This document shows positions 25,801 through 55,935 of a stretch of 64,000 nucleotides of DNA, in pieces; position 1 is the stretch's first letter; the number at the start of each line of letters is the position of its first letter. The notes under the pieces were generated by a model. The model was given only the letters and a program-made list of their open reading frames with translations, was not told the origin of the DNA and ran no database searches. The translations under genes were made by a program, and so were the position numbers. This stretch comes from Amoebophrya sp. A120 (Eukaryota > Protista > Dinoflagellata): NCBI GenBank assembly GCA_905178155.1, contig CAJINV010000004.1:2673513-2737512 (forward strand). The letters run 5' to 3'.

Positions 25801-27658
25801 CCTCCGCGGCAATGTACGAGGTCGCGACCGAGGAGCCGGGCTGCATGATGTGGTAATTTCCCGCTTTCGACTCCGCGGGGTCACACTTCGATTCGTGCTC
25901 GTGGCCCCAGATCACCAGGTTCAGCCAATCGGGCAGAAACTCCTCCTTCACACACTGCTTGTTCGGCATACCACCTGGATAGTCAGTTATTGCTTTACGT
26001 GTGGAAGAGCTTTTAGTTACCTCCGCATTTTCATATTTTCATTTCTGTGCACAGGATAAGAAGAACAGCTCTACTCAAGAAACTGTAAAAACTGGCGACG
26101 CGAAGAACGCCTCGAGGAAAACCGTACGTAATGTAGAATCGCTATTGCTGCTCACACGACACTGACGCACTTCATATATTTATCACTAAGTAAATGGTGT
26201 ACCAAAATTTCCGCGAAAGCGGTTTTGGTGTATAAGCATGATGTTGAAGTAGTCGTCGGGATTTGGCGTGGGTCGACTCCACGACACGTGTCCCTTTTCG
26301 AAGGTGCGGTTGAGTCGCTCGTCCCGCACGTTGCCAAGGCCGTAGAGGGCGAGCTTGGTGCCTTTTTTCTCGATGCAAATTGGGCCGAGCTTGATGTCGT
26401 CCACGTCCGGCTGATTGCCGAAGTAGTTGACTAGACGGTTCACGGAGAGCAGGTGGTTGGCGGACAGGTTGTGGATCCCGCCGGGATCGTCGTGGTTGCC
26501 GTGGATCATGAAATATCGAATGCAAAAGCATCGTACTAGTAGAAATCGCATTACAAATTTCCTCAGCATTACAAATTGAATTTGTAATGCTGATTTGCCT
26601 TGAGCAAAAAAATTGTAATGCATACACGCAATAATTACTACGAGTACGATACTTTTGCACAGGATATGAAAATCGGGATCGCAATGTTGTAGTTCGGGTC
26701 GTAGAAGTTCACCTCCTCGCGGGCCAAAAACGCGTGCTCGTCCACGTGGGACACTTGGATGTGGATATTCCCTGAAAATTGACCATCCCCAACATCTTCC
26801 AATTTGTCATGCAACATATGCAAAAGCTGTTGCGTTTGGCATGCGAAAAGTGAATGGGAACGGTTACTTTTCAGGAAATAATGGACCGGCGTGTCACCCA
26901 TGCAGTAGTCGGATAGGAGTTTGAAGGTGTCGTTCATGCACTTTCGACTCGGCTCATGCAAGACAAATTTTCTGTACATGTACAAAATGCATCACAAATT
27001 TCATGAACTTGGAGCATGCTCCTTGTCATGCTGAATCGAATGAAAAAGAAGCTTTGTCATGCAGAAACCGCATTTGTATATGTACAGGAAATTTACTGTG
27101 GATACGGCTTATTTTCGTCGAAGAGGTCCCCCGAGTGGAGGATGAAGTCGACCTCGTATGAAATGCAAGAAAAGCATCGTACTAGTATAAAAATAAATTG
27201 CAATACAAATTGGCTCAGCATTACAAATTGAATTTGTAATGCGGATTTGCCTTAGGAACTGGATTTGTAATGCATAAAAGCAATTAGTACGAGTACGATA
27301 CTTTTGCAGAGGATACCTTATTCTCCTTTGCGATGAGCAGAATCTCTTCAAACGTTTCCATGGCGTCATTGCCCAGCACGTCGTCGTGGTCCTTGTGACC
27401 CAGGTGCGTGTTATGCATTGCAAAAGCATCGTACTAGTATAATTCGCATGACAAATTTCTTCAGCATGAAAACTGAAATTTGTAAATGCTGATTTGCCTT
27501 AAGAGAGAGATTTGTAATGCCTGATTGCAATTACTACGAGTACGATACTTTTGCACAGGATACGTGTCCGTGAAAACCAAAATTCGCATCGTGCTGTCGT
27601 CCCGGGCCCGGTGCTGCGACGGGGCGGATGCAGACGAAGATCCTGGGACGCCGGACAT
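22859..27658 (-). CDS. MRE11: Double-strand break repair nuclease MRE11, 12 exons
   Basis: Spliced motifs RILVFTDT|HLG, VDFILHSGDLFDENKP|SR, PIF|MIHGNHDDP, LYGLGNVRDERL, HQNR, VIWGHEH, QPGSSVATS, LPLIRLKVDY, FGQQFVGRVANP; 10 introners plus canonical intron 25975-26202; Q/N-rich tail. Confidence 0.95.
23666..23873. mobile_element. Introner, family A (aged)
   Basis: TATCCAGTGC...GCAATGCATA; flanks CGGGG/CCGCG. Confidence 0.75.
24492..24642. mobile_element. Introner, family E
   Basis: TIR TATGCAAT..A.ATTT.CCGTACA.G.ACAA; TSD ACGCG. Confidence 0.9.
24870..25091. mobile_element. Introner, family B
   Basis: TIR TATGA(C/G)AGTGCACAACTCCCC; degenerate TSD CGAGG/CAAGA; frame DSFL|DPND. Confidence 0.85.
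25316..25594. mobile_element. Introner, family F
   Basis: TIR with AAAAACGT.CCCACACCAGAGT; TSD TCTTG. Confidence 0.92.
25645..25794. mobile_element. Introner, family A
   Basis: TATG(C/A)ATTGCAAA ends; TSD GCATG/GCACG. Confidence 0.88.
26514..26666. mobile_element. Introner, family A
   Basis: TGCAAAAG(C/T)ATCGTACT.GTAG TIR; TSD TGAAA. Confidence 0.92.
26766..26880. mobile_element. Introner, short, H-related
   Basis: TATT(C/T)CCTGAAAA TIR; TSD GTGGA/ATGGA; frame PVH|IQVS. Confidence 0.85.
26955..27104. mobile_element. Introner, family E
   Basis: AAATTT.CTGTACAT.TACAAA TIR (left end CAT); TSD CGGCT. Confidence 0.88.
27157..27315. mobile_element. Introner, family A, with GT-AG ends
   Basis: TSD CCTCG/CCTTA; sense AAG|GTATCC...CATACGAG|GTC. 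Confidence 0.88.
27412..27562. mobile_element. Introner, family A
   Basis: TSD CGTGT; splits MRE11 motif I (DT|HLG). Confidence 0.92.
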
Positions 27659-30257: not shown

Positions 30258-32077
30258 GTTATTAGATTTATATTTGCCTTTGCTGTTTGAACAAAAACGT
30301 AGTGAGCTGCCTTTTCGCAACACCGCTTTATTGGTTCCTTACCCGTTTCAGATGCTGAGCGATTATCGTAACAATGCCTATATTACAAATATAAAAATGT
30401 TTCGAACATCGCAACGCCCTGAAAAGCATGCAGCATCCGCTGCGAAGTGTTTTATTTTTGGAGAGGACCCTGAATTCAATCCGCGCAGGGTCAGCGCATC
30501 TCACGAAAGGCAATTTCTTGTCGAACCCAAAAAGGGAAGGGACTAGAGCTACACTTAGCTTCACGCTGCACATCGCATGATCGAGGTCAGAAGTAGATAA
30601 GTACCGCGAAAACACGCTACGATCGTCTGTAGGCAGAGCGGAAATCGCAAATAATAAACACAAAAACCGACGGCAGTACCACCACCGGCAAAAATGGGTC
30701 ATTCGGAATCGCTATCGCAGTACAAGAACCAATCAAAACATAACAAAATAGAGGGAATCGGGATCGATTCCCCCCAGCAGTCTGGCATACCCGCCATCGA
30801 CCAACCCGCCATAGAACAACTCAGCAGCCAGACTGCCCAAGGGGCTAGCTACCGCGTCGACCAGGTGGCATTCGTGGAACGACAGTGCAAGAACCATTCG
30901 GAGCAAGGGAGCCTGTGGAGGCCCTTGACAAAATTCCTAATAACCTGAAGCCCATAGCCAGAAAAGCTGCAGGTCGTATAGTTATCAGCCCCAAGAGAAC
31001 CCCTTCCAACGCGCCAAGAGGCGCGCGTACTGAAGTTTACCTTGCAACGCGAAGTGAGAGTACCAACTTTGCCAAGGCGAGAAGTCCTTTAGCAAACTTC
31101 TGCCCAAAAATGGGCAGACGAGTACACTCGCACAAGTTTAAGCAATAGCAAAAACAAAACTTCTTTAACGAACTTCTAACTTCCAGCGAGAGAAATAGAA
31201 GAAGATCATTAAAAAAGAAAAATACCCAAAGCCAAGAAAAGGCCAGACGGGTGCCCTCACAAGGTTCGAAGGGAGAAGCACGAGCAACCAAAAATTACTT
31301 TAACGAACTTCCTTCTCGCGCAAGCCAAGGCGAGGGAGTTCGATAAAGAAGAAAGCGCTGCAGTGTGAACCTTTCCAGCGCAAAAACTGCGCGTACTGAA
31401 GTCCGAAAGGGGAAAATGATAAGGCCCAAAAATCACCACTCGCCCCAAGGCAATCCCATCCTGAGATCCAAGACGGGGTGCGTGAAGGAACAATAGGTAA
31501 AAAGAAAAGGGGATATCAAATAGCGGAGGATGGCCAAGCAAAGGCCAAAGAGTCAGAGCCTCAGGAGGGTGGAGTCGGTGGCATATGCCATTCTCCTCAC
31601 AACAAGCCAAGCAATGCTCCCTAGATAGAGAGAGCAAAAACTAGTAGCCTATTGTTCCTTACCCGTTTCAGATGCTGAGCGATTATCGTAACAATGCCTA
31701 TATTTGCCTTTGCTGTTTGAACAACAACAAAAACGTAGTGAGCTGCCTTTTCAAAGGACCGCTTCTTGGTTCCTCGAACACGAAAGAAAAAGCAAATAGC
31801 TCACATCTTTCGACAAAAGATGATTTTTTGCGCATCCTCGCTTATCTTCGTTATCTTTTTTCTATGGAGGACATTCCAGCACGTCTTCAGCCGCTTAAGC
31901 CATTCAGCTGCTGAAGAGCTGCAATTGGCGGTCGTCATCGTCTCCAAAAAAATTGCGAAAACAAATTCTTTTCAGGTGAAAGGCGTGGAGTGGTTGAGTG
32001 CTGCCCCTGTGTACCAACTTTCGATTAAACACGCCGAAGTATTCCGGCCTCCAATCCTGTTTGTACCAAAGTCAACG

Positions 32078-33875
32078 TCAACCCCCACTCCCAGCGGGCG
32101 GCGGAAAGTTGAAGCTGTGAGTGAAGGGCCCCCCGGTGCAAAGCTCCAAACCCTGGCGGCCACCAAAGGTGCCCGTGACAATCGTTGGAAGGCGAAACGC
32201 CGGGTCGGAAGGCTTGGCGGTTTCAAGGACGCAGGGTCGCAGTGTACTATCGGTCGGGCCGTCGGTTCCTTTCTGTTGCAATTCAGTAGAAGGCTTCTCC
32301 GGATGTGCTAGCTGCTCCTGGGGGGCGGTGGTGCTTGATTTGGTGGAAATCTCTTCTGCTGGAAGCTGTTTGATATTCGCCGCTCCTTTATTTCCCGTAT
32401 CGCTTGCGACGTTGCCAACATTCTTTTGGCCTACTCTTTCGTCAACAATTTGTGAAGTAGACCCTCCGGAGGTCCTCTCCGTCTGGGTCTGCTGCGTAGA
32501 AGTAGGAGCCTGGCGGGTCGTCGCTACATTCTTCTGCTCGTACTTTTGCTTGTACTTGGCCCACATTTTCTCAAGCTTCTTCCGCCGTGACTTTGCCACG
32601 GGCTCACCCGTTGCCGCGGCTGTCACTGGAAAACCGGAGTCATCGAAGGTGGAGAACTCGTGTTCTTGGTTGGCAGCAGTAGATTCGTCCTGCTGCTGTA
32701 TGCATTGCAAATATGTCTGGGTCTGGGAGGACGCGAACTTGTCGTGCTAAGAAAGTCCTCTGGATCGGGCAACAATTTGTGTTGCATGACTACCAAAAGC
32801 TGTCCACTTTTGAACAAATTTCGAGGCAGATTGTCATGCAGGTTAGGCATCATAGAGACGTCAGAGAACCTGTCATGCTAGGTTCTGCATTCCAAACCTC
32901 ATGGGGCATGCCGCATGGAAAATATGAAATGCATGAGAAGTTTGTATTGTTCCAGACCCAGCAGACACATTTGCAGTTGATATGCTGCTGTTCCCAATTG
33001 CGGTACTCGCCACTTCTGAAAAATTCCTCGGGAGGTGGCAAATTTACTCTCTCGTCGTTGCTCTGGCTTTTTCCGCCAATCCCAATCATACGACCATCGG
33101 GCCGAAATTTGCCTGGCTTGTCCTTGTGTCGTCCCGCCGTTGTACTACAGCCACTACCAGATACAGCTGCTCCACAACACAGTTGCTCCACGACCACCGC
33201 TGCCAGCGCTTTCCGGAACAAGCGATACAAAACCTCCGCCTCTTCTTTGCCGCACTGCGAGTGGTACTTCAGCGTTTTGTCGCCCGGGTTCAGCTATCCT
33301 GTGCAGAAGTATCGTACTCGTACCGTAGTAATTGCAGTCATGCATTACACATCTTTTTCTTAAGGTAAATCCGCATTGCAAATTTTATTTCTCATGCTGA
33401 GAAAATAATTTGTAATGCATCTATACGAGTACGATACTTTTGCAGTTCATATCAGCTTCGCCGTCAGCGAGGCCTGCGGGATCAACACCAGGCACTGGTC
33501 TTGCCCCTGCTTGCACAAGTCGACGACCGATTTGGCGTCTGAGTGGTCCTTTTCCCACGCATTGGTACTGGACAAACTCGCGGTGAGCAGCGATTTGCAA
33601 ATCTTCTTCAAATGGGTAAATTCCTTTGAGGTTTCTTCGTCTGCTTCTTGTTTCTCATTCTCAGCTGTACTACTCTTCATGATGCTGAAGAACTTCGTGA
33701 AGGAGACATGGAGGATCAGTCCGCGGTTAAAGCTCGCCCACACATCTTTGTCCGCGTCGACGAGTAACCGCCCGGAAACCACACGCTGCGTCACCACTTT
33801 CAAACCAGTCGGAGGCTCTGCGGGTGGTGCGGCCGGGGATTTGTTCTGGAGAAGGTCGCTGGACGGATTTGTCAT
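32078..33875 (-). CDS. DTD2: ATD/DTD2-type aminoacyl-tRNA deacylase with internal insertion, 3 exons (33875-33452, 33289-32983, 32693-32078)
   Basis: KVVTQRV, GLILHVSF, LIPQASL (ATD PQATL type), LKYH, GTFGGRQGLEL.TGGPFTH (ATD TNGP[F/Y]TH type). Confidence 0.82.
32699..32982. mobile_element. Introner, family C
   Basis: TSD TGCTG. Confidence 0.9.
33295..33451. mobile_element. Introner, family A
   Basis: TSD TCAGC. Confidence 0.92.
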
Positions 33876-34708
33876 CGTTATTGGTTGCGGTTATTCATCT
33901 ACTTACTCCGCTGCAAAGGCGTTTGTCTTTTATTTTACTAGTATTTTCAACCAGATCACTTCATGTTCCCTTTCTGGCGAGTTGTGATGTTTACAGACAA
34001 CTGCTACTGCAACGACAACGGATAAGACGGCGCAAGAGAAGCGCCTACCTTATAGACCACGATCTTCCGACACGTTCCTGAGAAATTGCAATGACCAGGG
34101 AAGGTGGAGGTGGTAGTTCTCGAAGTTACAACGATGAAAAGAACTTACGCCCACCGGCAGCGACTTTATAGAAAGTGCAAAGCAAAAGCATAAATGCCGA
34201 CCTGGTGCAACTACAACTACTCGAATGATCCACACGAATGTGAGATCTTCCTTTTGCGCGGCAGACTCTATGAAAGAATTAATAAAGAGTTGTAGCCGCC
34301 CCGTTGGACTGTCAATTTTGACTTTCAGGATCTTCTGCAGAAGCCGATAGCATGAACTACTGGTGATCTTCGCTTCCTCTCGTTGTCGCTGATCGTCCAA
34401 CGCAATGCTATACAGAAAGGCGCCGATCCTTCCGCGAGCAGTCCGCGAGTTGCGATACAAACATTGAAGCGCTTTCGCGGCGCAGAACTACTTCGTTTCG
34501 GGACCACAGGAGTTGAATCACTTTTCGGGTTACGTCGCACATTCAACACGACAAAGAACAACACAGTACCTTTCGAACGAAGATGCACCTCGCGCCAGTA
34601 CATGTTTTTGACGACAAAATGTCAAACTTACCCGTACACACAGACACAACATACACCAGTTCATTTTTTATCGATAATACGCCTCGCATCGCGATTTTTC
34701 TTTCCGCA

Positions 34709-37700
34709 TCACAGTTCTCCACCCTCCTGCGGCCCCTCTTGTGCAGTTTCCTCTTCCTCACCCACCCGCCACCACCACACACCGTCCATACCGTAGTAGA
34801 TTTTCTGCTGCGCGTATGGAACAGAAAGAGACGAGGAGAATGCATGCTTACGCCAGAGAAATTAGATCGAGCTAGCGGCAATCCTCGGGTTACCTTGTGC
34901 GCAACGCTTTCTTATAGAAGAACCCGTGGACGAAAGCAGGAACATTCGTGTAGATGCAGCAACGCAACACAGATGATAGTCATAGTTGTGACAAAAATTG
35001 TCTTCCTCTCTCTTCTCTCATACCCACAGGCGCTGGTCTGACACTCCCCAGAGCAGTGGCGGATGCACGCAGGTGAAGTCGTGCCCCGCCAGGATGCCCA
35101 GCGGCTTTACCTTTTGCGCGTAGTGCAGGATGTCGTGGTTCACCTGCTTGTAGGTGTGCGGCCCATCGATGAAGATTAAATCGAAAGAAGCGTCCGGGAA
35201 GCGGTCAATGGTGGCCTGGGACGTTTCCGCCAGCAAGTCGTAGCGGTGCGGGGCGAAGTTTTGGGCGAAACGGGCGCGGTATGAATTGCAAAAGTATCGT
35301 AATCGTACTCGTATTGCAATCATGCATCACAATTTTTTTTCTTGAGGTATATCAGCATTACAAAATTTATTTCTCATGCTGAGGAAATTTGTAATGCATT
35401 TATTTTTCTACGAGTACGATGCTTTTGCAAAGGATACGCGGACCTCGGGAGCGATCGTCGGGTCCACGCCGGTGTAGTGCAGGTTGGGGAACCGGGAAAG
35501 CAGGTAGTTGCCGTTTTGCCCCACGGCGACACCGATCTCCAGCACGCGTAAAGGTCGGGTTATCCAAGATGAAACTATGAAGAGGGGTTACTAAGCGTAG
35601 TTCTTCTTTTTACTCGGGAGACAGCATCACAAATCTGGCTGGCATGACAGCACATAAACCTCCAGACATGCGCGGTAGATCTGACGGTAGGGTACTTGAA
35701 CGGGCCTTACCGAATGCATGCCCGGTGGTGCAGCATGACATATGCAACTGTCTTGCGAGCATGAGCAGTCTCACCCTATCACCGTATTTTTTCTGCTTCC
35801 ATATGGGTCCGACGGTCCACGAGTTTTTGTGGGTGGCCGCGCAAGAGAAACCGCACGTCGCGGTCGAGCAGTAGAGTGGGTAAGTCCGAGTGCCATTCCT
35901 CCAAGAGGAAGGCGTCTAGCATGTCCCAGTGGCGTCCGTAGGCGATGGGCTGAAACACGTAGACAGGGTATTACAGTGAAAAGTGCCCCCCCCCAACCCT
36001 GAAATCGCAAAAATTTGCGATGCGAAGTTTCCAAATGAAAACTTTTTGTCATGCATGAAAGGAGTATGAATCTTTCTGATGCAGAGTCTAGGCGTGTATC
36101 GCATCGCTTGTATGACAAGTGCCTCGCTTGCTGGGGTCTTTTGCAATACAAATTTTTGCTATTCACGATGGGAAACCTGTGATGCTGGTAGATACAAGAG
36201 GGCGAGCGCGAGTGTTTCATTTGGAAAGGTTTGCAATACAAATGCTCCCAACTACGTTCGGGGTTTGGGGGCATTTTTCATTGCAATACAGGGGGAAGAT
36301 TCCACGGAAAGTCGTGGTTTTGGGACTGGAAAACTTCGGTGAACACCAGCTTCAGATATCCACAGTAAATTTCCCGTACACGTACAAATGCAGTCTCTGC
36401 ATGACAAAACTAGCCTTCAGTCCTAGTCTAGCATGACAAGTTGTACACTGCAACTTAGCGAAATTTGTCATGCATTTTGTACATGTACGGGAAATCTACA
36501 TGGCATATCAGGCCCAGGCTGGTCCGCGCGTGCAGCATGAGGAGTCGCGCCGCCACGGTCAATTGCAAAGCCAGGGCGGTTTCGTAGCCGTTTTTCTTTC
36601 GCGCCTTATTGTTTTTCTTGCTGGCAGCTACCGCGGAGGAGGAACTAGATGTTGAAAGAACTACGTCTTTTACCACGCAGGCCTTTCCCAAGTCGTTCAG
36701 CGCGTTGGGGTCCCGGTAGCCCAGAACTTCTTTCTCCACGGTGGCTTTCCAGCGACCGTAGACCGCCAGCAACGAGTCACCGACCTCCTCGAAGTGCGGA
36801 TTTTCCGGATTGGAGGGTAAAAGAAACTTTTGGTACTGCTCGAGCAGTTTTGCGTTGTCCTCAATCGCGAACTCGGACGGGTCAATCATCTTTTCCTCGG
36901 CCGACAGCAGGGCGACCGAGATTTCCCGCATCTGCTCACACAGGTCGATGATCAAGTTGGCTTGGGAACGCACCTGCTCCTCAGGCAGGCCGCCATCGAC
37001 GACCTGTTGCAGGCCGTTGGCAAAGTGGGACAGACCAAAAACGTGCTGATCCAGGGACAGCGGGACGTGATCCTGCTCGTGGCCCCAGTGGCAAATGCGG
37101 TCATCTTGCAGGAGCTGCTCTAGCTGGTCCCCGTTCTCGTGCTTGATATTCCCACGTGTAGTTCTTTTATCGACATTATTTTCCTCATCATTATCCCCAG
37201 CAGCGGCACAGTAGTCCAAATACGGAATCAACACCCTCCCTTTGGTCTTGGGAAACAGGCTTTCTGGATTGTACCCCGGCTGGTGGAGCTTCCAAACACC
37301 GTCGTCGAAGTCTTGCTGGTATGCTTTGTAAAAGTATCGCACTCGTACTAATTGCAAATACGCATGACAAATCTTCCTCCTATTAGGGTAAAACAGCATT
37401 ACAAATCCGGAATTTGTAAAACCATTTTTCTTCTTAACAAAATTATTTGTAATGCAATTTATGCTAGTATGTTACTTTTGCAATGCGTAGTTGGGTGATG
37501 GGCAGCTGATCCACTTTGTCCTGATTTTTTTCCGCACAATCAAACGACTCGCAGACCTTCCGTAAAAAGCTGCCGGCCTCCTCCCCCAGAAGCGTCTCCA
37601 CGTAGTCGTGACACTGCTCGAAGTTTCCCAGGCACAGCGCGAAATTTTCCTTCTCGCGCTCGGCGTGCTGGACCGCGTGGACAGATGGAATTATAGGGTT

Positions 37701-53800: not shown

Positions 53801-55935
53801 ACTTTTACACCAGAACACGTGCGTACATTTCTGCTCGAGAAGTACCGCACTCCCGTGGCGGCGCAGAGAGCCACGACCTCCTTTCGCCAGTTCACAAACA
53901 TCTCCGCCATGTACTTCCGTTATCGTAAGGAGAAACTCCCCCTGCCCATACTGAAAAGAGACACTTCTGAATATTTGCGATGCTGATTTGCAGACGCGAA
54001 TCGTCTCTGTATTGCAAGAAAGCAAGGCCAGAGACCCCGCCGCGCTTTGTGGGCGCAATTTGTAATGCTGTAGGGCGTGCAGAGGATAAGCCTCCCTCGC
54101 TAGGCGCCTACACCAAAAAGGCCCAGCTCAGGCTTTGTATCTGCGCGCGGTGAGACCTCTACGACTACTGCAAGACAAAGCTGATTTGTGTACACAAATC
54201 TTGCATCACAGATTTACGATTTGATACGGGGAGGGAGGATTTTTCATTTTGATATCCGCTGCATTTTCACGAGGGAGAAATTCCAGAACTCCTGCGGAAG
54301 GAGATCCTCTTCAGCGTGGTTTCCCTTTCTTTCGGGAGAAGAAAAAGGGACTTGCTCATTTGCTTGGTCCTCTGCAGGACGATCGAGATGACGATCTTCT
54401 GCAGTTCCAATTATCTCGCTGGTACTACCACTTTCCAATTCACCGAGTAGCCGAACGTTTTTCCGCAGCTGCGTGGACTTTCGCTTTTCCCCCTTGGTCA
54501 GCAGGTGATCGTTGTCGCGCGCCATGTAGAGCATGCCCTGCGAGACTATCCAGAAAAAAACACCCATCCCCATCCATATTTAGCATGACAAACACTGCAC
54601 TTTATCCAGGTTTTGCATGACAAATTGGATGGGGATGGGTGTTTTTTCCTGGATAGAGACCGCCCAGACCAAATGCAGGGAGATCGCGCGGAACCACATG
54701 TGGCCCACGGGAAAGACAATTTTGTGGTCATACTGCGACTTGCGCAGCTGCGTCACCTGCACCGTCTGCTCCATCACGGAATTCCCCGGGTCAATCACCC
54801 GACCCTCCACCGCCTCGCGCCAATGGTCGTAGGGCACCTCGCCCCACTTGTGCTGCCAAAAATGGTCCGCAGAATCCATATCCGAGGCTTGCTTCGGGGT
54901 CAGGGAAGCGGAGGATGGTGGTGGTGCGGATAACAACGTTTTTACATCTCGGCTTCCGGAATATGGAGCATGAACATGATCCGAAAGATGAACAGTAGTA
55001 CCTGCAGGAGGACCAACATGACCATCATTGGGTGGAAATTCCGGTACTGCCTCAACGTGATTTGATGTTATCGCGGATGAAGCAGGTCTTGTAGTCACCG
55101 TCGTTGTGTAGTACGGCCTCCGTCGCACTCCCTTCGCGTGTTCCAACAACTCCAGCTTCCGCGGGCGCCACTCCGTGCGCGCAATCCTGGACATTTCGCC
55201 TCCGCACGCCCAGAAGAAGAGTTTATCAAAGCCGCCCTTCACGTGGCCAATGTTTTTCAATGTCTCCTCCGCGAAACAGGCGAAGGCGGCGTTGGCGAAA
55301 ACGGTGAACTGCATCTCAAACGTGCGGGAATTCCACCCGGGAATCGCGTAGTGGGCCAGGGAATCGAGCCAGTAGTCCCGCGGGAGCCGGGAGCTCGCCG
55401 CGCACAAGGAGTGTGGCTGGAGTACGGCCAGCTCATTCTCCCAAATCACCGGAAACACAAAGTCCGGATCAAAGCGCGCCACATGCACGTCGTCGAGCAG
55501 AACCAAAACATAGTCATAGTAGGTTTTGTTTTCATAATTTTCGCTTTTTCTGTTCGTGGTTCCGGTTCCTACCCCCTTGATAAACTGCTCATACGCGTTC
55601 CACAGAGCGTTCTGGTAGTGTGCTTGTTCGTTTCGCACCACGGCGCAGCGATGCACGCCGGTACCGTTGTGCGGAGGGGCTGGGGGTGAGTGCGTGGCGC
55701 GCGAGGTGGTAGCAAGGCCGCTGTCGTGGAGCTCTTGTGTATGTGTATGAACGATCCGCTCCAGGTCGTATTCTTCCCTTTTTCGCCAAGTGAAAATGGC
55801 ACAGTCCACGTCCCGCGCCGAAAAATATTGGCTCCGGGAGAAGCTGTTTTGCAGCGTCTCGATGCTCTTTTTCAAATACGGCCATCGCTCCCGGTCGCCG
55901 TGGCCGGGGACCAGAATTAGAAAGCGAAACTGCAT
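50892..55935 (-). CDS. Large protein with an N-terminal DUF707/glycosyltransferase-like domain, about 9 exons
   Basis: YYDYVLVLLDDVHV..FDPDFVF..LAVLQP..FEMQFTVF.NAAFAC recalls DUF707; frame restored across 7 introners; one intron at ~53584-53800 is unresolved. Confidence 0.6.
51019..51249. mobile_element. Aged introner
   Basis: TATCCTGTG(T/C)AA TIR; TSD degenerate; frame restored. Confidence 0.75.
51317..51516. mobile_element. Aged introner
   Basis: TSD AGGAG/CGGAG; frame TQLR|DLEQ. Confidence 0.8.
51689..51994. mobile_element. Introner, family D
   Basis: TSD CGCGA. Confidence 0.92.
52752..52904. mobile_element. Introner, family A
   Basis: TSD TGCCG. Confidence 0.92.
53383..53523. mobile_element. 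Introner, family A
   Basis: TSD GGCAA. Confidence 0.92.
53921..54254. mobile_element. Introner, family I
   Basis: TSD TCCGT/TCCGC. Confidence 0.88.
54547..54655. mobile_element. Introner, family H (109 bp)
   Basis: Near-perfect TIR TATCCAG.AAAAAACACCCATCCCCATCCA; TSD GAGAC. Confidence 0.93.

What the first reader, a model, noticed from the sequence alone, without database searches (positions are those of the whole stretch)
32078..33875. ATD-type tRNA deacylase with a CysRS C-terminal-like module inserted inside the fold
Seen: PQASL and TGGPFTH motifs. Established: ATD/DTD2 has PQATL and TNGP[Y/F]TH whereas canonical DTD has SQFTL and NDGPVT, and ATD is mainly animal with a few protist homologues. 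Between the last helix (LYRLFRKAL) and the final GTFGGRQ strand lie ~250 extra residues including LPPPEEFFRSGEY...FSTFDDSGFPVTAAATGEPVAKSRRKKLEKMWAKYKQKY. This resembles the eukaryote-specific C-terminal extension of cysteinyl-tRNA synthetase (P.E.F...YS.FD..G.PT....GE...K...KKL.K). Inference: a borrowed tRNA-binding domain that could give the editing enzyme new tRNA specificity.
Basis: partly seen in the sequence, partly recalled or inferred. Interest (0 to 1): 0.7.

Follow-up and report, generated by a model that had tools for sequence, protein, structure and literature searches.

The report
tRNA proofreader carrying a synthetase tail
A parasitic dinoflagellate gene encodes a relative of a tRNA-proofreading enzyme published as mostly animal, with a small module inserted that also forms the tail of cysteinyl- and some glutaminyl-tRNA synthetases and likely helps it hold tRNA; the same build recurs in other algae and protists.

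Summary
Confirmed, but not special to this organism. The gene has three exons. Both introns are skipped in contigs of four probable RNA runs from one sample, giving a 448-aa protein identical to an Amoebophrya A120 record. The core is ATD-type (AlphaFold model Z 18.5 to mouse ATD). Of about 230 extra residues, only 225-303 fold; the rest is disordered linker. A profile of ATD inserts alone finds eukaryotic CysRS tails (best E 9e-19) and three GlnRS tails, so CysRS is not shown to be the donor. The module is in 104 of 150 listed relatives and at the same site in 84 of 84 complete ones, including Perkinsus, diatoms and a chlorarachniophyte. Four lysines are 91-100% Lys/Arg in all three hosts. 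Best reading (0.55): a tethered, general tRNA-holding arm; new tRNA specificity is untested (0.2). The family keeps both the DTD-type and ATD-type arginines, so substrate chirality is open. I found no paper on this build. This scan noted it before in another genome (e1-7378734).

The parts
33452..33875 (-). Exon 1: start codon and N-terminal part of the ATD core (residues 1-141)
33783..33788 (-). Gln30-Arg31; Arg31 aligns with Arg7 of DTD, where mouse ATD has Gln16
   Evidence: PMC5802732 section 6
33465..33479 (-). Motif 1, PQASL (ATD PQATL; DTD SQFTL)
33290..33451 (-). Intron 1, 162 nt, non-canonical ends, 21-nt inverted repeat (33302-33322 / 33424-33444) and 6-nt direct repeat; introner-like, 12 other long copies in the window
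   Evidence: element type described in PMC7789003
32983..33289 (-). Exon 2: YHSQ segment, last core helix, disordered linker 1 (residues 179-224) and first half of the module
32694..32982 (-). Intron 2, 289 nt, non-canonical ends, inverted repeats (32699-32719 / 32962-32982; 32717-32747 / 32931-32961), 5-nt direct repeat; sits in a poorly conserved loop of the module
32516..33041 (-). Inserted module, residues 225-303 (short helix, beta-hairpin, long Lys-rich helix), split by intron 2; homologous to the last ~60 residues of eukaryotic CysRS and of some GlnRS
32528..32596 (-). Lys-rich helix, residues 277-299, net charge +8, with conserved K278, K282, K283, K286
32201..32515 (-). Disordered, poorly conserved linker 2 (residues 304-408)
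32105..32200 (-). Final strands of the ATD core (residues 409-440): Arg423 (ATD Arg151) at 32158-32156 and motif 2 TGGPFTH at 32137-32117 with the Gly-Pro dipeptide
32078..32693 (-). Exon 3, ending in the TGA stop
31836..34069 (-). Extent of the longest spliced contig (contig ends do not show transcript ends)
   Evidence: X1 record 1

Best explanation
This is a spliced, ATD-type gene whose predicted deacylase fold is interrupted by a conserved ~60-80 residue module shared with the tails of eukaryotic CysRS and some GlnRS, and the module likely works as a tethered, general tRNA-holding arm. Shown: exon structure, ATD-type core, position and homology of the module, its spread and its conservation. 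Predicted: the core closes around the insert and the module folds on its own. Inferred from mouse ATD and DTD: a homodimer with cross-subunit Gly-Pro active sites that hydrolyses small or D-amino acids off tRNA, contacting only the acceptor end. Inferred: the Lys face of the module's helix grips the tRNA backbone away from the 3' end, raising affinity so that the enzyme can compete with elongation factor for mischarged tRNA, without choosing a tRNA species. Inferred history: one old insertion, inherited vertically at least in the Amoebophrya-Perkinsus line, and lost several times.
For: Core: family profile hits Leishmania ATD at 5.7e-38 and mouse ATD at 1.2e-34, canonical DTDs at 2.4e-10 to 6e-3. 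Model aligns residues 23-440 to 5XAQ, Z 18.5, rmsd 1.9 over 156, ahead of DTDs at 14.9-15.2. Module: pLDDT 69-96 in ten-residue blocks over 221-300 and 94-97 in a relative. Residues 255-299 are 27/45 and 23/45 identical to two close relatives, like the core (79/155 each) and unlike the linkers (6-9/46, 13-14/109). K278, K282, K283, K286 are Lys or Arg in 95-100% of 84 ATD modules, 91-100% of 22 CysRS modules and 3 of 3 GlnRS modules. All three host enzymes act on tRNA, but on different tRNAs. Spacing is loose: motif 1 to module 45-142 residues, module to final Pro 39-129. Full-length GlnRS P0201 shows no Pfam match for an N-terminal appended domain and carries the module instead; that N-terminal domain raises tRNA affinity in yeast (PMC3333875, abstract). 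ATD is expected to touch only the first 3-4 acceptor base pairs and competes with EF-Tu (PMC5802732 passages).
Against: No binding or activity data exist for this protein. The only functional statement I could read on the CysRS C-terminal extension says it matters for anticodon recognition (PMC12542199 citing Liu 2007; the original is not held), which points to specificity. The module is only mildly basic overall (median net +4 in ATD, +1 in CysRS, -1 in P0001). 29 of 113 complete relatives, and mouse and Leishmania ATD, lack it, so it is dispensable for ATD chemistry. The query contained the module, so the 104 of 150 count is biased upward. The core tree has no animal ATD and no root, so gain and loss cannot be told apart. 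Motif 2 has Gly where ATD has Asn, and Arg7 is kept, so the substrate may differ from animal ATD.
Confidence: 0.55

Rival explanations
1. The module reads a tRNA identity element (anticodon or elbow) and aims the enzyme at a particular mischarged tRNA, most plausibly Ala-tRNA(Cys) or Ala-tRNA(Gln) with a G4-U69 pair.
For: The CysRS extension is reported to matter for anticodon recognition (second hand). Eukaryotic AlaRS mischarges tRNA(Cys)(G4-U69), and mouse ATD clears it only weakly, at 50 nM against 1 nM for tRNA(Thr). Choanoflagellates carry G4-U69 in tRNA(Gln). The two synthetases that share the module are CysRS and GlnRS. The linkers are long enough to reach the anticodon end.
Against: The most conserved exposed residues are lysines, the same in three enzymes with different tRNA partners. 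Linker lengths vary about threefold. In CysRS and GlnRS the known anticodon-binding domains lie upstream of the module. No genome was held, so G4-U69 tRNAs could not be checked.
Confidence: 0.2
2. The module is a protein-docking tag that brings ATD, CysRS and GlnRS to a common partner (a synthetase complex, eEF1A or the ribosome) rather than to free tRNA.
For: Appended synthetase domains often mediate complexes (PMC4394549, passages). A conserved aromatic/Pro/Gly hairpin and a near-neutral overall charge could be a docking surface.
Against: A strip of four near-invariant lysines on one helix is more typical of nucleic-acid backbone contact (general knowledge). The helix weakly matches the AsnRS N-terminal domain (15 of 30 members at E<=1, best 1.3e-4; the whole proteins scanned stay below Pfam's cut-off).
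Confidence: 0.15
3. Whatever the module does, the core behaves like DTD (Gly-cisPro, D-amino acids and Gly only) or as an intermediate, not like animal ATD. This rival concerns the chemistry and can hold together with any module function.
For: Arg31 (DTD Arg7, said to lock the cis form) is kept in 82 of 84 module-bearing proteins. Mouse ATD has Gln and Leishmania ATD has Ala there.
Against: Arg423 (ATD Arg151, said to hold the trans form) is kept in 76 of 84, both arginines in 75 of 84. Choanoflagellate ATD keeps Arg7, lacks Arg151 and still clears L-Ala-tRNA(Thr) (PMC7302879 passages). Sequence and model are closer to ATD.
Confidence: 0.25
4. The insert is a neutral leftover, or the fusion is a gene-model artefact.
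For: Two thirds of the insert is low-complexity and unconserved. The gene has non-canonical introns.
Against: Single spliced contigs hold all exons. The module is as conserved as the core and sits between motifs 1 and 2 in 84 of 84 complete carriers.
Confidence: 0.03

Closest known systems
ATD / DTD2 (Animalia-specific tRNA deacylase; mouse 5XAQ, Leishmania major 1TC5)
   Same: DTD-like fold, PQAxL motif 1, GT(F/Y)GxRQ with Arg151, GP(F/Y)TH motif 2; best sequence and structure matches.
   Different: About 230 extra residues between the last helix and the final strands, where mouse has ~16 and Leishmania ~30. Keeps Arg at the DTD Arg7 position. PQASL and TGGPFTH instead of PQATL and TNGPYTH. 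Activity untested.
Canonical DTD1 (E. coli 1JKE, Plasmodium 3KNF/4NBI, human 2OKV)
   Same: Same fold (Z 14.9-15.2) and Arg7 equivalent.
   Different: Lacks SQFTL and NxGPVT; has ATD's Arg151; far weaker profile scores.
C-terminal extension of eukaryotic cytosolic CysRS
   Same: In 22 of 22 CysRS hits the match ends 0-26 residues from the C-terminus, with the same P-x3-F, (Y/F)-x2-(W/F)D-x2-G-x-P, G and K-x3-KK-x2-K pattern.
   Different: Terminal in CysRS, internal and doubly tethered here. Only the last ~60 residues are shared, not the preceding long helix or the anticodon domain. No Pfam family covers it.
Protist GlnRS with the same tail (for example Thalassiosira oceanica EJK54997.1)
   Same: Same module at the very C-terminus. 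T. oceanica also encodes an ATD with the module (EJK62042.1).
   Different: Host is a class Ib synthetase; seen in only 3 of 58 hits here.
Lys-rich tRNA-binding helices of eukaryotic class IIb synthetase extensions (consensus xSKxxLKKxxK, recalled from memory, no paper found)
   Same: Similar lysine spacing; weak AsnRS_N and 8FA3 matches on the helix only.
   Different: No match to the hairpin half; may be convergence.

Membership tests
ATD (DTD2) | DTD-like fold, closer to ATD than to DTD | tested here: met
   (predicted model)
ATD (DTD2) | Motif 1 PQATL | tested here: met
   PQASL, one conservative change also seen in Leishmania ATD
ATD (DTD2) | Motif 2 TNGP(Y/F)TH | tested here: inconclusive
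   TGGPFTH: GPFTH kept, Asn replaced by Gly; Leishmania ATD also lacks the Asn
ATD (DTD2) | Invariant Arg151 | tested here: met
   Arg423; 76 of 84 module-bearing relatives
ATD (DTD2) | Gln in place of DTD Arg7 (Gln16 in mouse) | tested here: not met
   Arg31; 82 of 84 relatives. Choanoflagellate ATD also keeps it, so I file this as ATD-type, not as an animal ATD proper
ATD (DTD2) | Gly-transPro at a cross-subunit active site; homodimer | not tested
   Monomer model only, coordinates not inspected; no dimer model was obtained
ATD (DTD2) | Deacylates L-Ala-tRNA(Thr)(G4-U69); co-occurs with G4-U69 tRNAs | not testable with these tools
   No assay; no genome held; no tRNA gene in the window
Canonical DTD1 | SQFTL and NxGPVT motifs | tested here: not met
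Eukaryotic CysRS C-terminal module | Profile-level homology in both directions | tested here: met
   ATD-only profile to CysRS, best E 8.8e-19; CysRS-only profile to P0001 43.7 bits and to 103 of 150 relatives. The CysRS set was itself picked by the ATD profile
Eukaryotic CysRS C-terminal module | Similar predicted fold | tested here: met
   Atlas TM 0.61-0.65 over about 60 residues to clusters named CysRS; both sides predicted, scores under the tool's naming bar
Eukaryotic CysRS C-terminal module | Descent from CysRS (direction of transfer) | tested here: inconclusive
   62-column tree mostly unresolved; ATD modules as one clade not rejected, p-AU 0.06
Eukaryotic CysRS C-terminal module | Binds tRNA or aids anticodon recognition | not testable with these tools
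   Second-hand statement only

The most novel reading that the evidence does not exclude
ATD is an old, widespread eukaryotic enzyme rather than an animal innovation, and its common algal and protist form is a tRNA-selective editor built by grafting a synthetase tail into the fold, aimed at Ala-mischarged tRNA(Cys) or tRNA(Gln). The short animal enzyme would be a stripped or sister form, and the insert would explain why earlier surveys scored diatoms and dinoflagellates as lacking ATD.
Probability: 0.2. Interest if true: 0.78.

Novelty: new variant of a known kind. Interest (0 to 1): 0.52.

Why it matters
First, the published picture ties ATD to animals and choanoflagellates, with a few parasites explained by gene transfer (PMC5802732, PMC7302879). 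Its supplement scores 10 of 48 protists as positive, and Thalassiosira pseudonana, Phaeodactylum, Symbiodinium and Emiliania as negative. ATD-type proteins are named here in Amoebophrya, Perkinsus, two diatoms, Amorphochlora, Mesostigma and Pterocystis. These are not the same species as in that survey, but most are not animal parasites, so the origin story needs re-testing. Second, a small module with no Pfam family, shared by CysRS, some GlnRS and ATD, can be studied alone or deleted from a simple enzyme. That is a clean way to learn what the CysRS tail does. Patient variants fall in the human CysRS extension. Third, a family with both the cis-locking and the trans-locking arginine directly tests the proposed cis-to-trans switch. 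The limits: no function is shown, the enzyme family and the CysRS tail are both known, and this scan has met the build before.

Tried and rejected
Exon-by-exon Pfam found neither the core nor the module; the spliced protein gives Tyr_Deacylase at 1.2e-7. A word-based search with the P0002 module found only itself among 54 candidates, a sensitivity limit. The module has no solved relative by sequence (heparin lyase hits at E 0.013-0.17 rejected as a chance hairpin match) or by fold (Foldseek none at E<=0.001; VIA best Z 4.7); this does not show a new fold. The Atlas feature search gave only unnamed hits at 0.75-0.80, leads at best. Two raw-read RNA runs of 2026 laid 0 reads: no test. No RNA holder was listed on record. 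A virus-contig scan with the module alignment could not be run. No whole genome was held, so the organism's own CysRS, GlnRS, DTD1 and tRNA genes were not examined. No dimer prediction was obtained. Neighbouring genes (Mre11-like by my reading with a weak Metallophos match, a methyltransferase, a CCCH protein) show no link. The module tree is too short to name a donor; its weak grouping of Amoebophrya modules with GlnRS (94/62) was not accepted. Literature searches listed no paper on an ATD with this insert; I saw listings and abstract starts for most hits, and the library lacks most subscription journals. Liu 2007 on the CysRS extension was not held. PMC11580382, PMC4394549 and PMC6366043 (passages) said nothing on the module. 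Of supplements, only those of PMC5802732 were searched.

Full report
Gene structure. The region holds one gene on the minus strand in three reading frames. Contigs from four runs of one sample, guessed by the tool to be RNA, skip 33290-33451 and 32694-32982 exactly, and single contigs span all three exons. Run X5 covers the flanks, runs from exon into intron and shows neither joint. Both introns have non-canonical ends with terminal inverted repeats and 5-6 nt direct repeats, and intron 1 has 12 other long copies in the window. This matches the introner elements described for Amoebophrya (PMC7789003, passages). The spliced frame gives 448 aa, identical to a database protein labelled Amoebophrya sp. 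A120, unnamed product.

The core. The best solved relatives of the single protein are mouse ATD (1e-6) and Leishmania ATD (1.7e-4). A profile of 107 relatives scores them at 1.2e-34 and 5.7e-38, and canonical DTDs at 2.4e-10 or weaker. An AlphaFold model from that alignment (pTM 0.59) aligns residues 23-440 to mouse ATD at Z 18.5, rmsd 1.9 over 156 residues; DTDs follow at 14.9-15.2. So the final strands are predicted to rejoin the N-terminal part, and the insert loops out. The published ATD signatures are PQATL, TNGPYTH, Gln16 in place of DTD Arg7, and Arg151 (PMC5802732 section 6 and passages). This protein has PQASL, TGGPFTH and Arg423, but keeps Arg31 at the Arg7 position. Among 84 complete module-bearing relatives, 82 have the first arginine, 76 the second and 75 both; among 29 without the module, 14 have both. 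[quoted passage not shown] I therefore call the core ATD-type, with the Gly-Pro conformation and chirality open.

The insert. 244 residues separate the last helix from the final strands, against about 16 in mouse. Only 225-303 fold with confidence: a short helix, a beta-hairpin and a long helix. A relative's module folds the same way at pLDDT 94-97. Against A25 and a second close relative, residues 255-299 are 51-60% identical, the core 51%, and the linkers 12-20%. A profile built only from 30 ATD inserts found 58 proteins among the 7991 candidates scored: 19 with the deacylase domain, 22 with the CysRS catalytic domain, 3 GlnRS-type and 14 without Pfam label, the best CysRS at 8.8e-19. In all 22 CysRS the match ends 0-26 residues from the C-terminus, and in all 3 GlnRS at the very end. 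The reverse profile from CysRS alone scores P0001 at 43.7 bits against 10.2 for the best of 1000 module shuffles, and it finds 103 of the 150 relatives. The CysRS set was chosen by the first profile, so the two tests are not fully independent. The signal comes from the hairpin half, not from the lysine-rich helix. The Atlas structure search also pointed to CysRS clusters and to a deacylase cluster. No Pfam family covers the module.

Spread. An exhaustive search found 211 clusters at 50% identity, of which the best 150 were listed. 104 of 150 carry the module; of the other 46, 29 are complete without it and 17 are fragments or did not align over all core parts. The query held the module, so carriers are over-represented. 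Adding 10 hits gave 160 rows, 113 with all three core parts; 84 of these carry the module, and in 84 of 84 it lies between motifs 1 and 2. Most records are unnamed. I looked up 30 clusters. Named carriers are Amoebophrya A25, Perkinsus marinus and P. olseni, Conticribra weissflogii, Thalassiosira oceanica and Amorphochlora amoebiformis. Named non-carriers are Mesostigma viride and Pterocystis, besides mouse and Leishmania. T. oceanica has the module on both its ATD and a GlnRS. In a quick tree of the 113 cores without the insert, A120 groups with A25 and Perkinsus (9 rows, SH-aLRT 97), and module presence needs at least 7 changes, 5 forced by strong branches. Given one shared site, one gain and several losses is simplest, but the tree is unrooted and has no animal sequence, and some losses may be gene-model errors. 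A tree of 68 modules (40 of the ATD carriers, 25 CysRS, 3 GlnRS; 62 columns) is mostly unresolved, so the donor is unknown.

Mechanism. Shown: architecture, homology, conservation. Inferred: like ATD and DTD, the protein is a homodimer that hydrolyses the ester of mischarged tRNA and touches only the acceptor end (PMC5802732). The module's most constant exposed residues are K278, K282, K283 and K286, Lys or Arg in 95-100% of 84 ATD, 91-100% of 22 CysRS and 3 of 3 GlnRS modules. It hangs on linkers of variable length. One lysine face serving three enzymes with different tRNA partners suggests backbone binding and a general gain in affinity (0.55). One full-length GlnRS carrier shows no Pfam match for the usual N-terminal appended domain, which raises tRNA affinity in yeast (PMC3333875, abstract); that fits replacement of one tRNA grip by another. 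The specificity rival (0.2) rests on a second-hand statement that the CysRS extension aids anticodon recognition (PMC12542199, passages), and on G4-U69 tRNA(Cys) and tRNA(Gln) being known AlaRS errors. Protein docking (0.15) is not excluded. The resemblance of the helix to the xSKxxLKKxxK consensus of class IIb extensions is recalled, not sourced (searches found nothing).

Novelty. Nine literature searches listed no paper on this build. The ATD papers describe the enzyme as animal and choanoflagellate with a few exceptions, and their supplement scores 10 of 48 protists positive, with both diatoms, Symbiodinium and Emiliania negative. I did not test those same species. That the insert hid such proteins from BLAST is an inference. 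This scan has noted the same ATD build in another genome (e1-7378734) and a GlnRS with the same tail (e1-7182352); both are AI notes and I count them as leads only. Verdict: a real, conserved, apparently undescribed variant of a known enzyme family, with a clear experimental handle and no demonstrated function. Interest 0.52.

Noticed in passing
proteins P0196, P0201, P0216, P0261 (T. oceanica EJK54997.1): Protist GlnRS ending in the same module as CysRS; P0201 shows no Pfam match for an N-terminal appended domain.
   Followed up: partly
proteins P0014, P0018, P0020, P0040, P0045, P0057, P0058, P0063, P0067, P0069, P0071, P0081, P0086, P0101, P0129, P0139: A 16-row clade of ATD-type paralogs without the module, inside the 33-row group that holds Amoebophrya and Perkinsus. 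The two I read (P0020, P0058) have a ~165-residue N-terminal extension with no Pfam match in P0020, and several have GPFMH in motif 2.
   Followed up: partly
protein P0197 residue 697; P0001 residue 257: The module's conserved aromatic is Tyr697 in a 745-aa mosquito CysRS. The human CARS1 variant p.Tyr698Cys (PMC12542199, uncertain significance) may hit the same position.
   Followed up: no
window 26521-53523: Twelve further long copies of the intron 1 element at 69-84% identity, on both strands; the known A120 introner phenomenon.
   Followed up: partly
window 32983-32693 junction, residues 241-254: Intron 2 sits in a CAG-rich, acidic loop of the module that is longer in Amoebophrya than in most relatives; the Gln run supplies the 5-nt direct repeat.
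   Followed up: no
window 26186-26806 (-): Exon that reads like an Mre11 nuclease by my recall; Pfam gives only a weak Metallophos match (7.7e-4).
   Followed up: partly
window 35018-35587 (-): Upstream neighbour is an intron-split class I methyltransferase (Methyltransf_24, 4.3e-14), on the same strand.
   Followed up: partly
protein P0126 (Amorphochlora, 659 aa): ATD with the module followed by about 380 further residues with no Pfam match; may be a gene-model fusion.
   Followed up: no
window 54580-55935 (-): A 451-aa open frame with no Pfam match.
   Followed up: no
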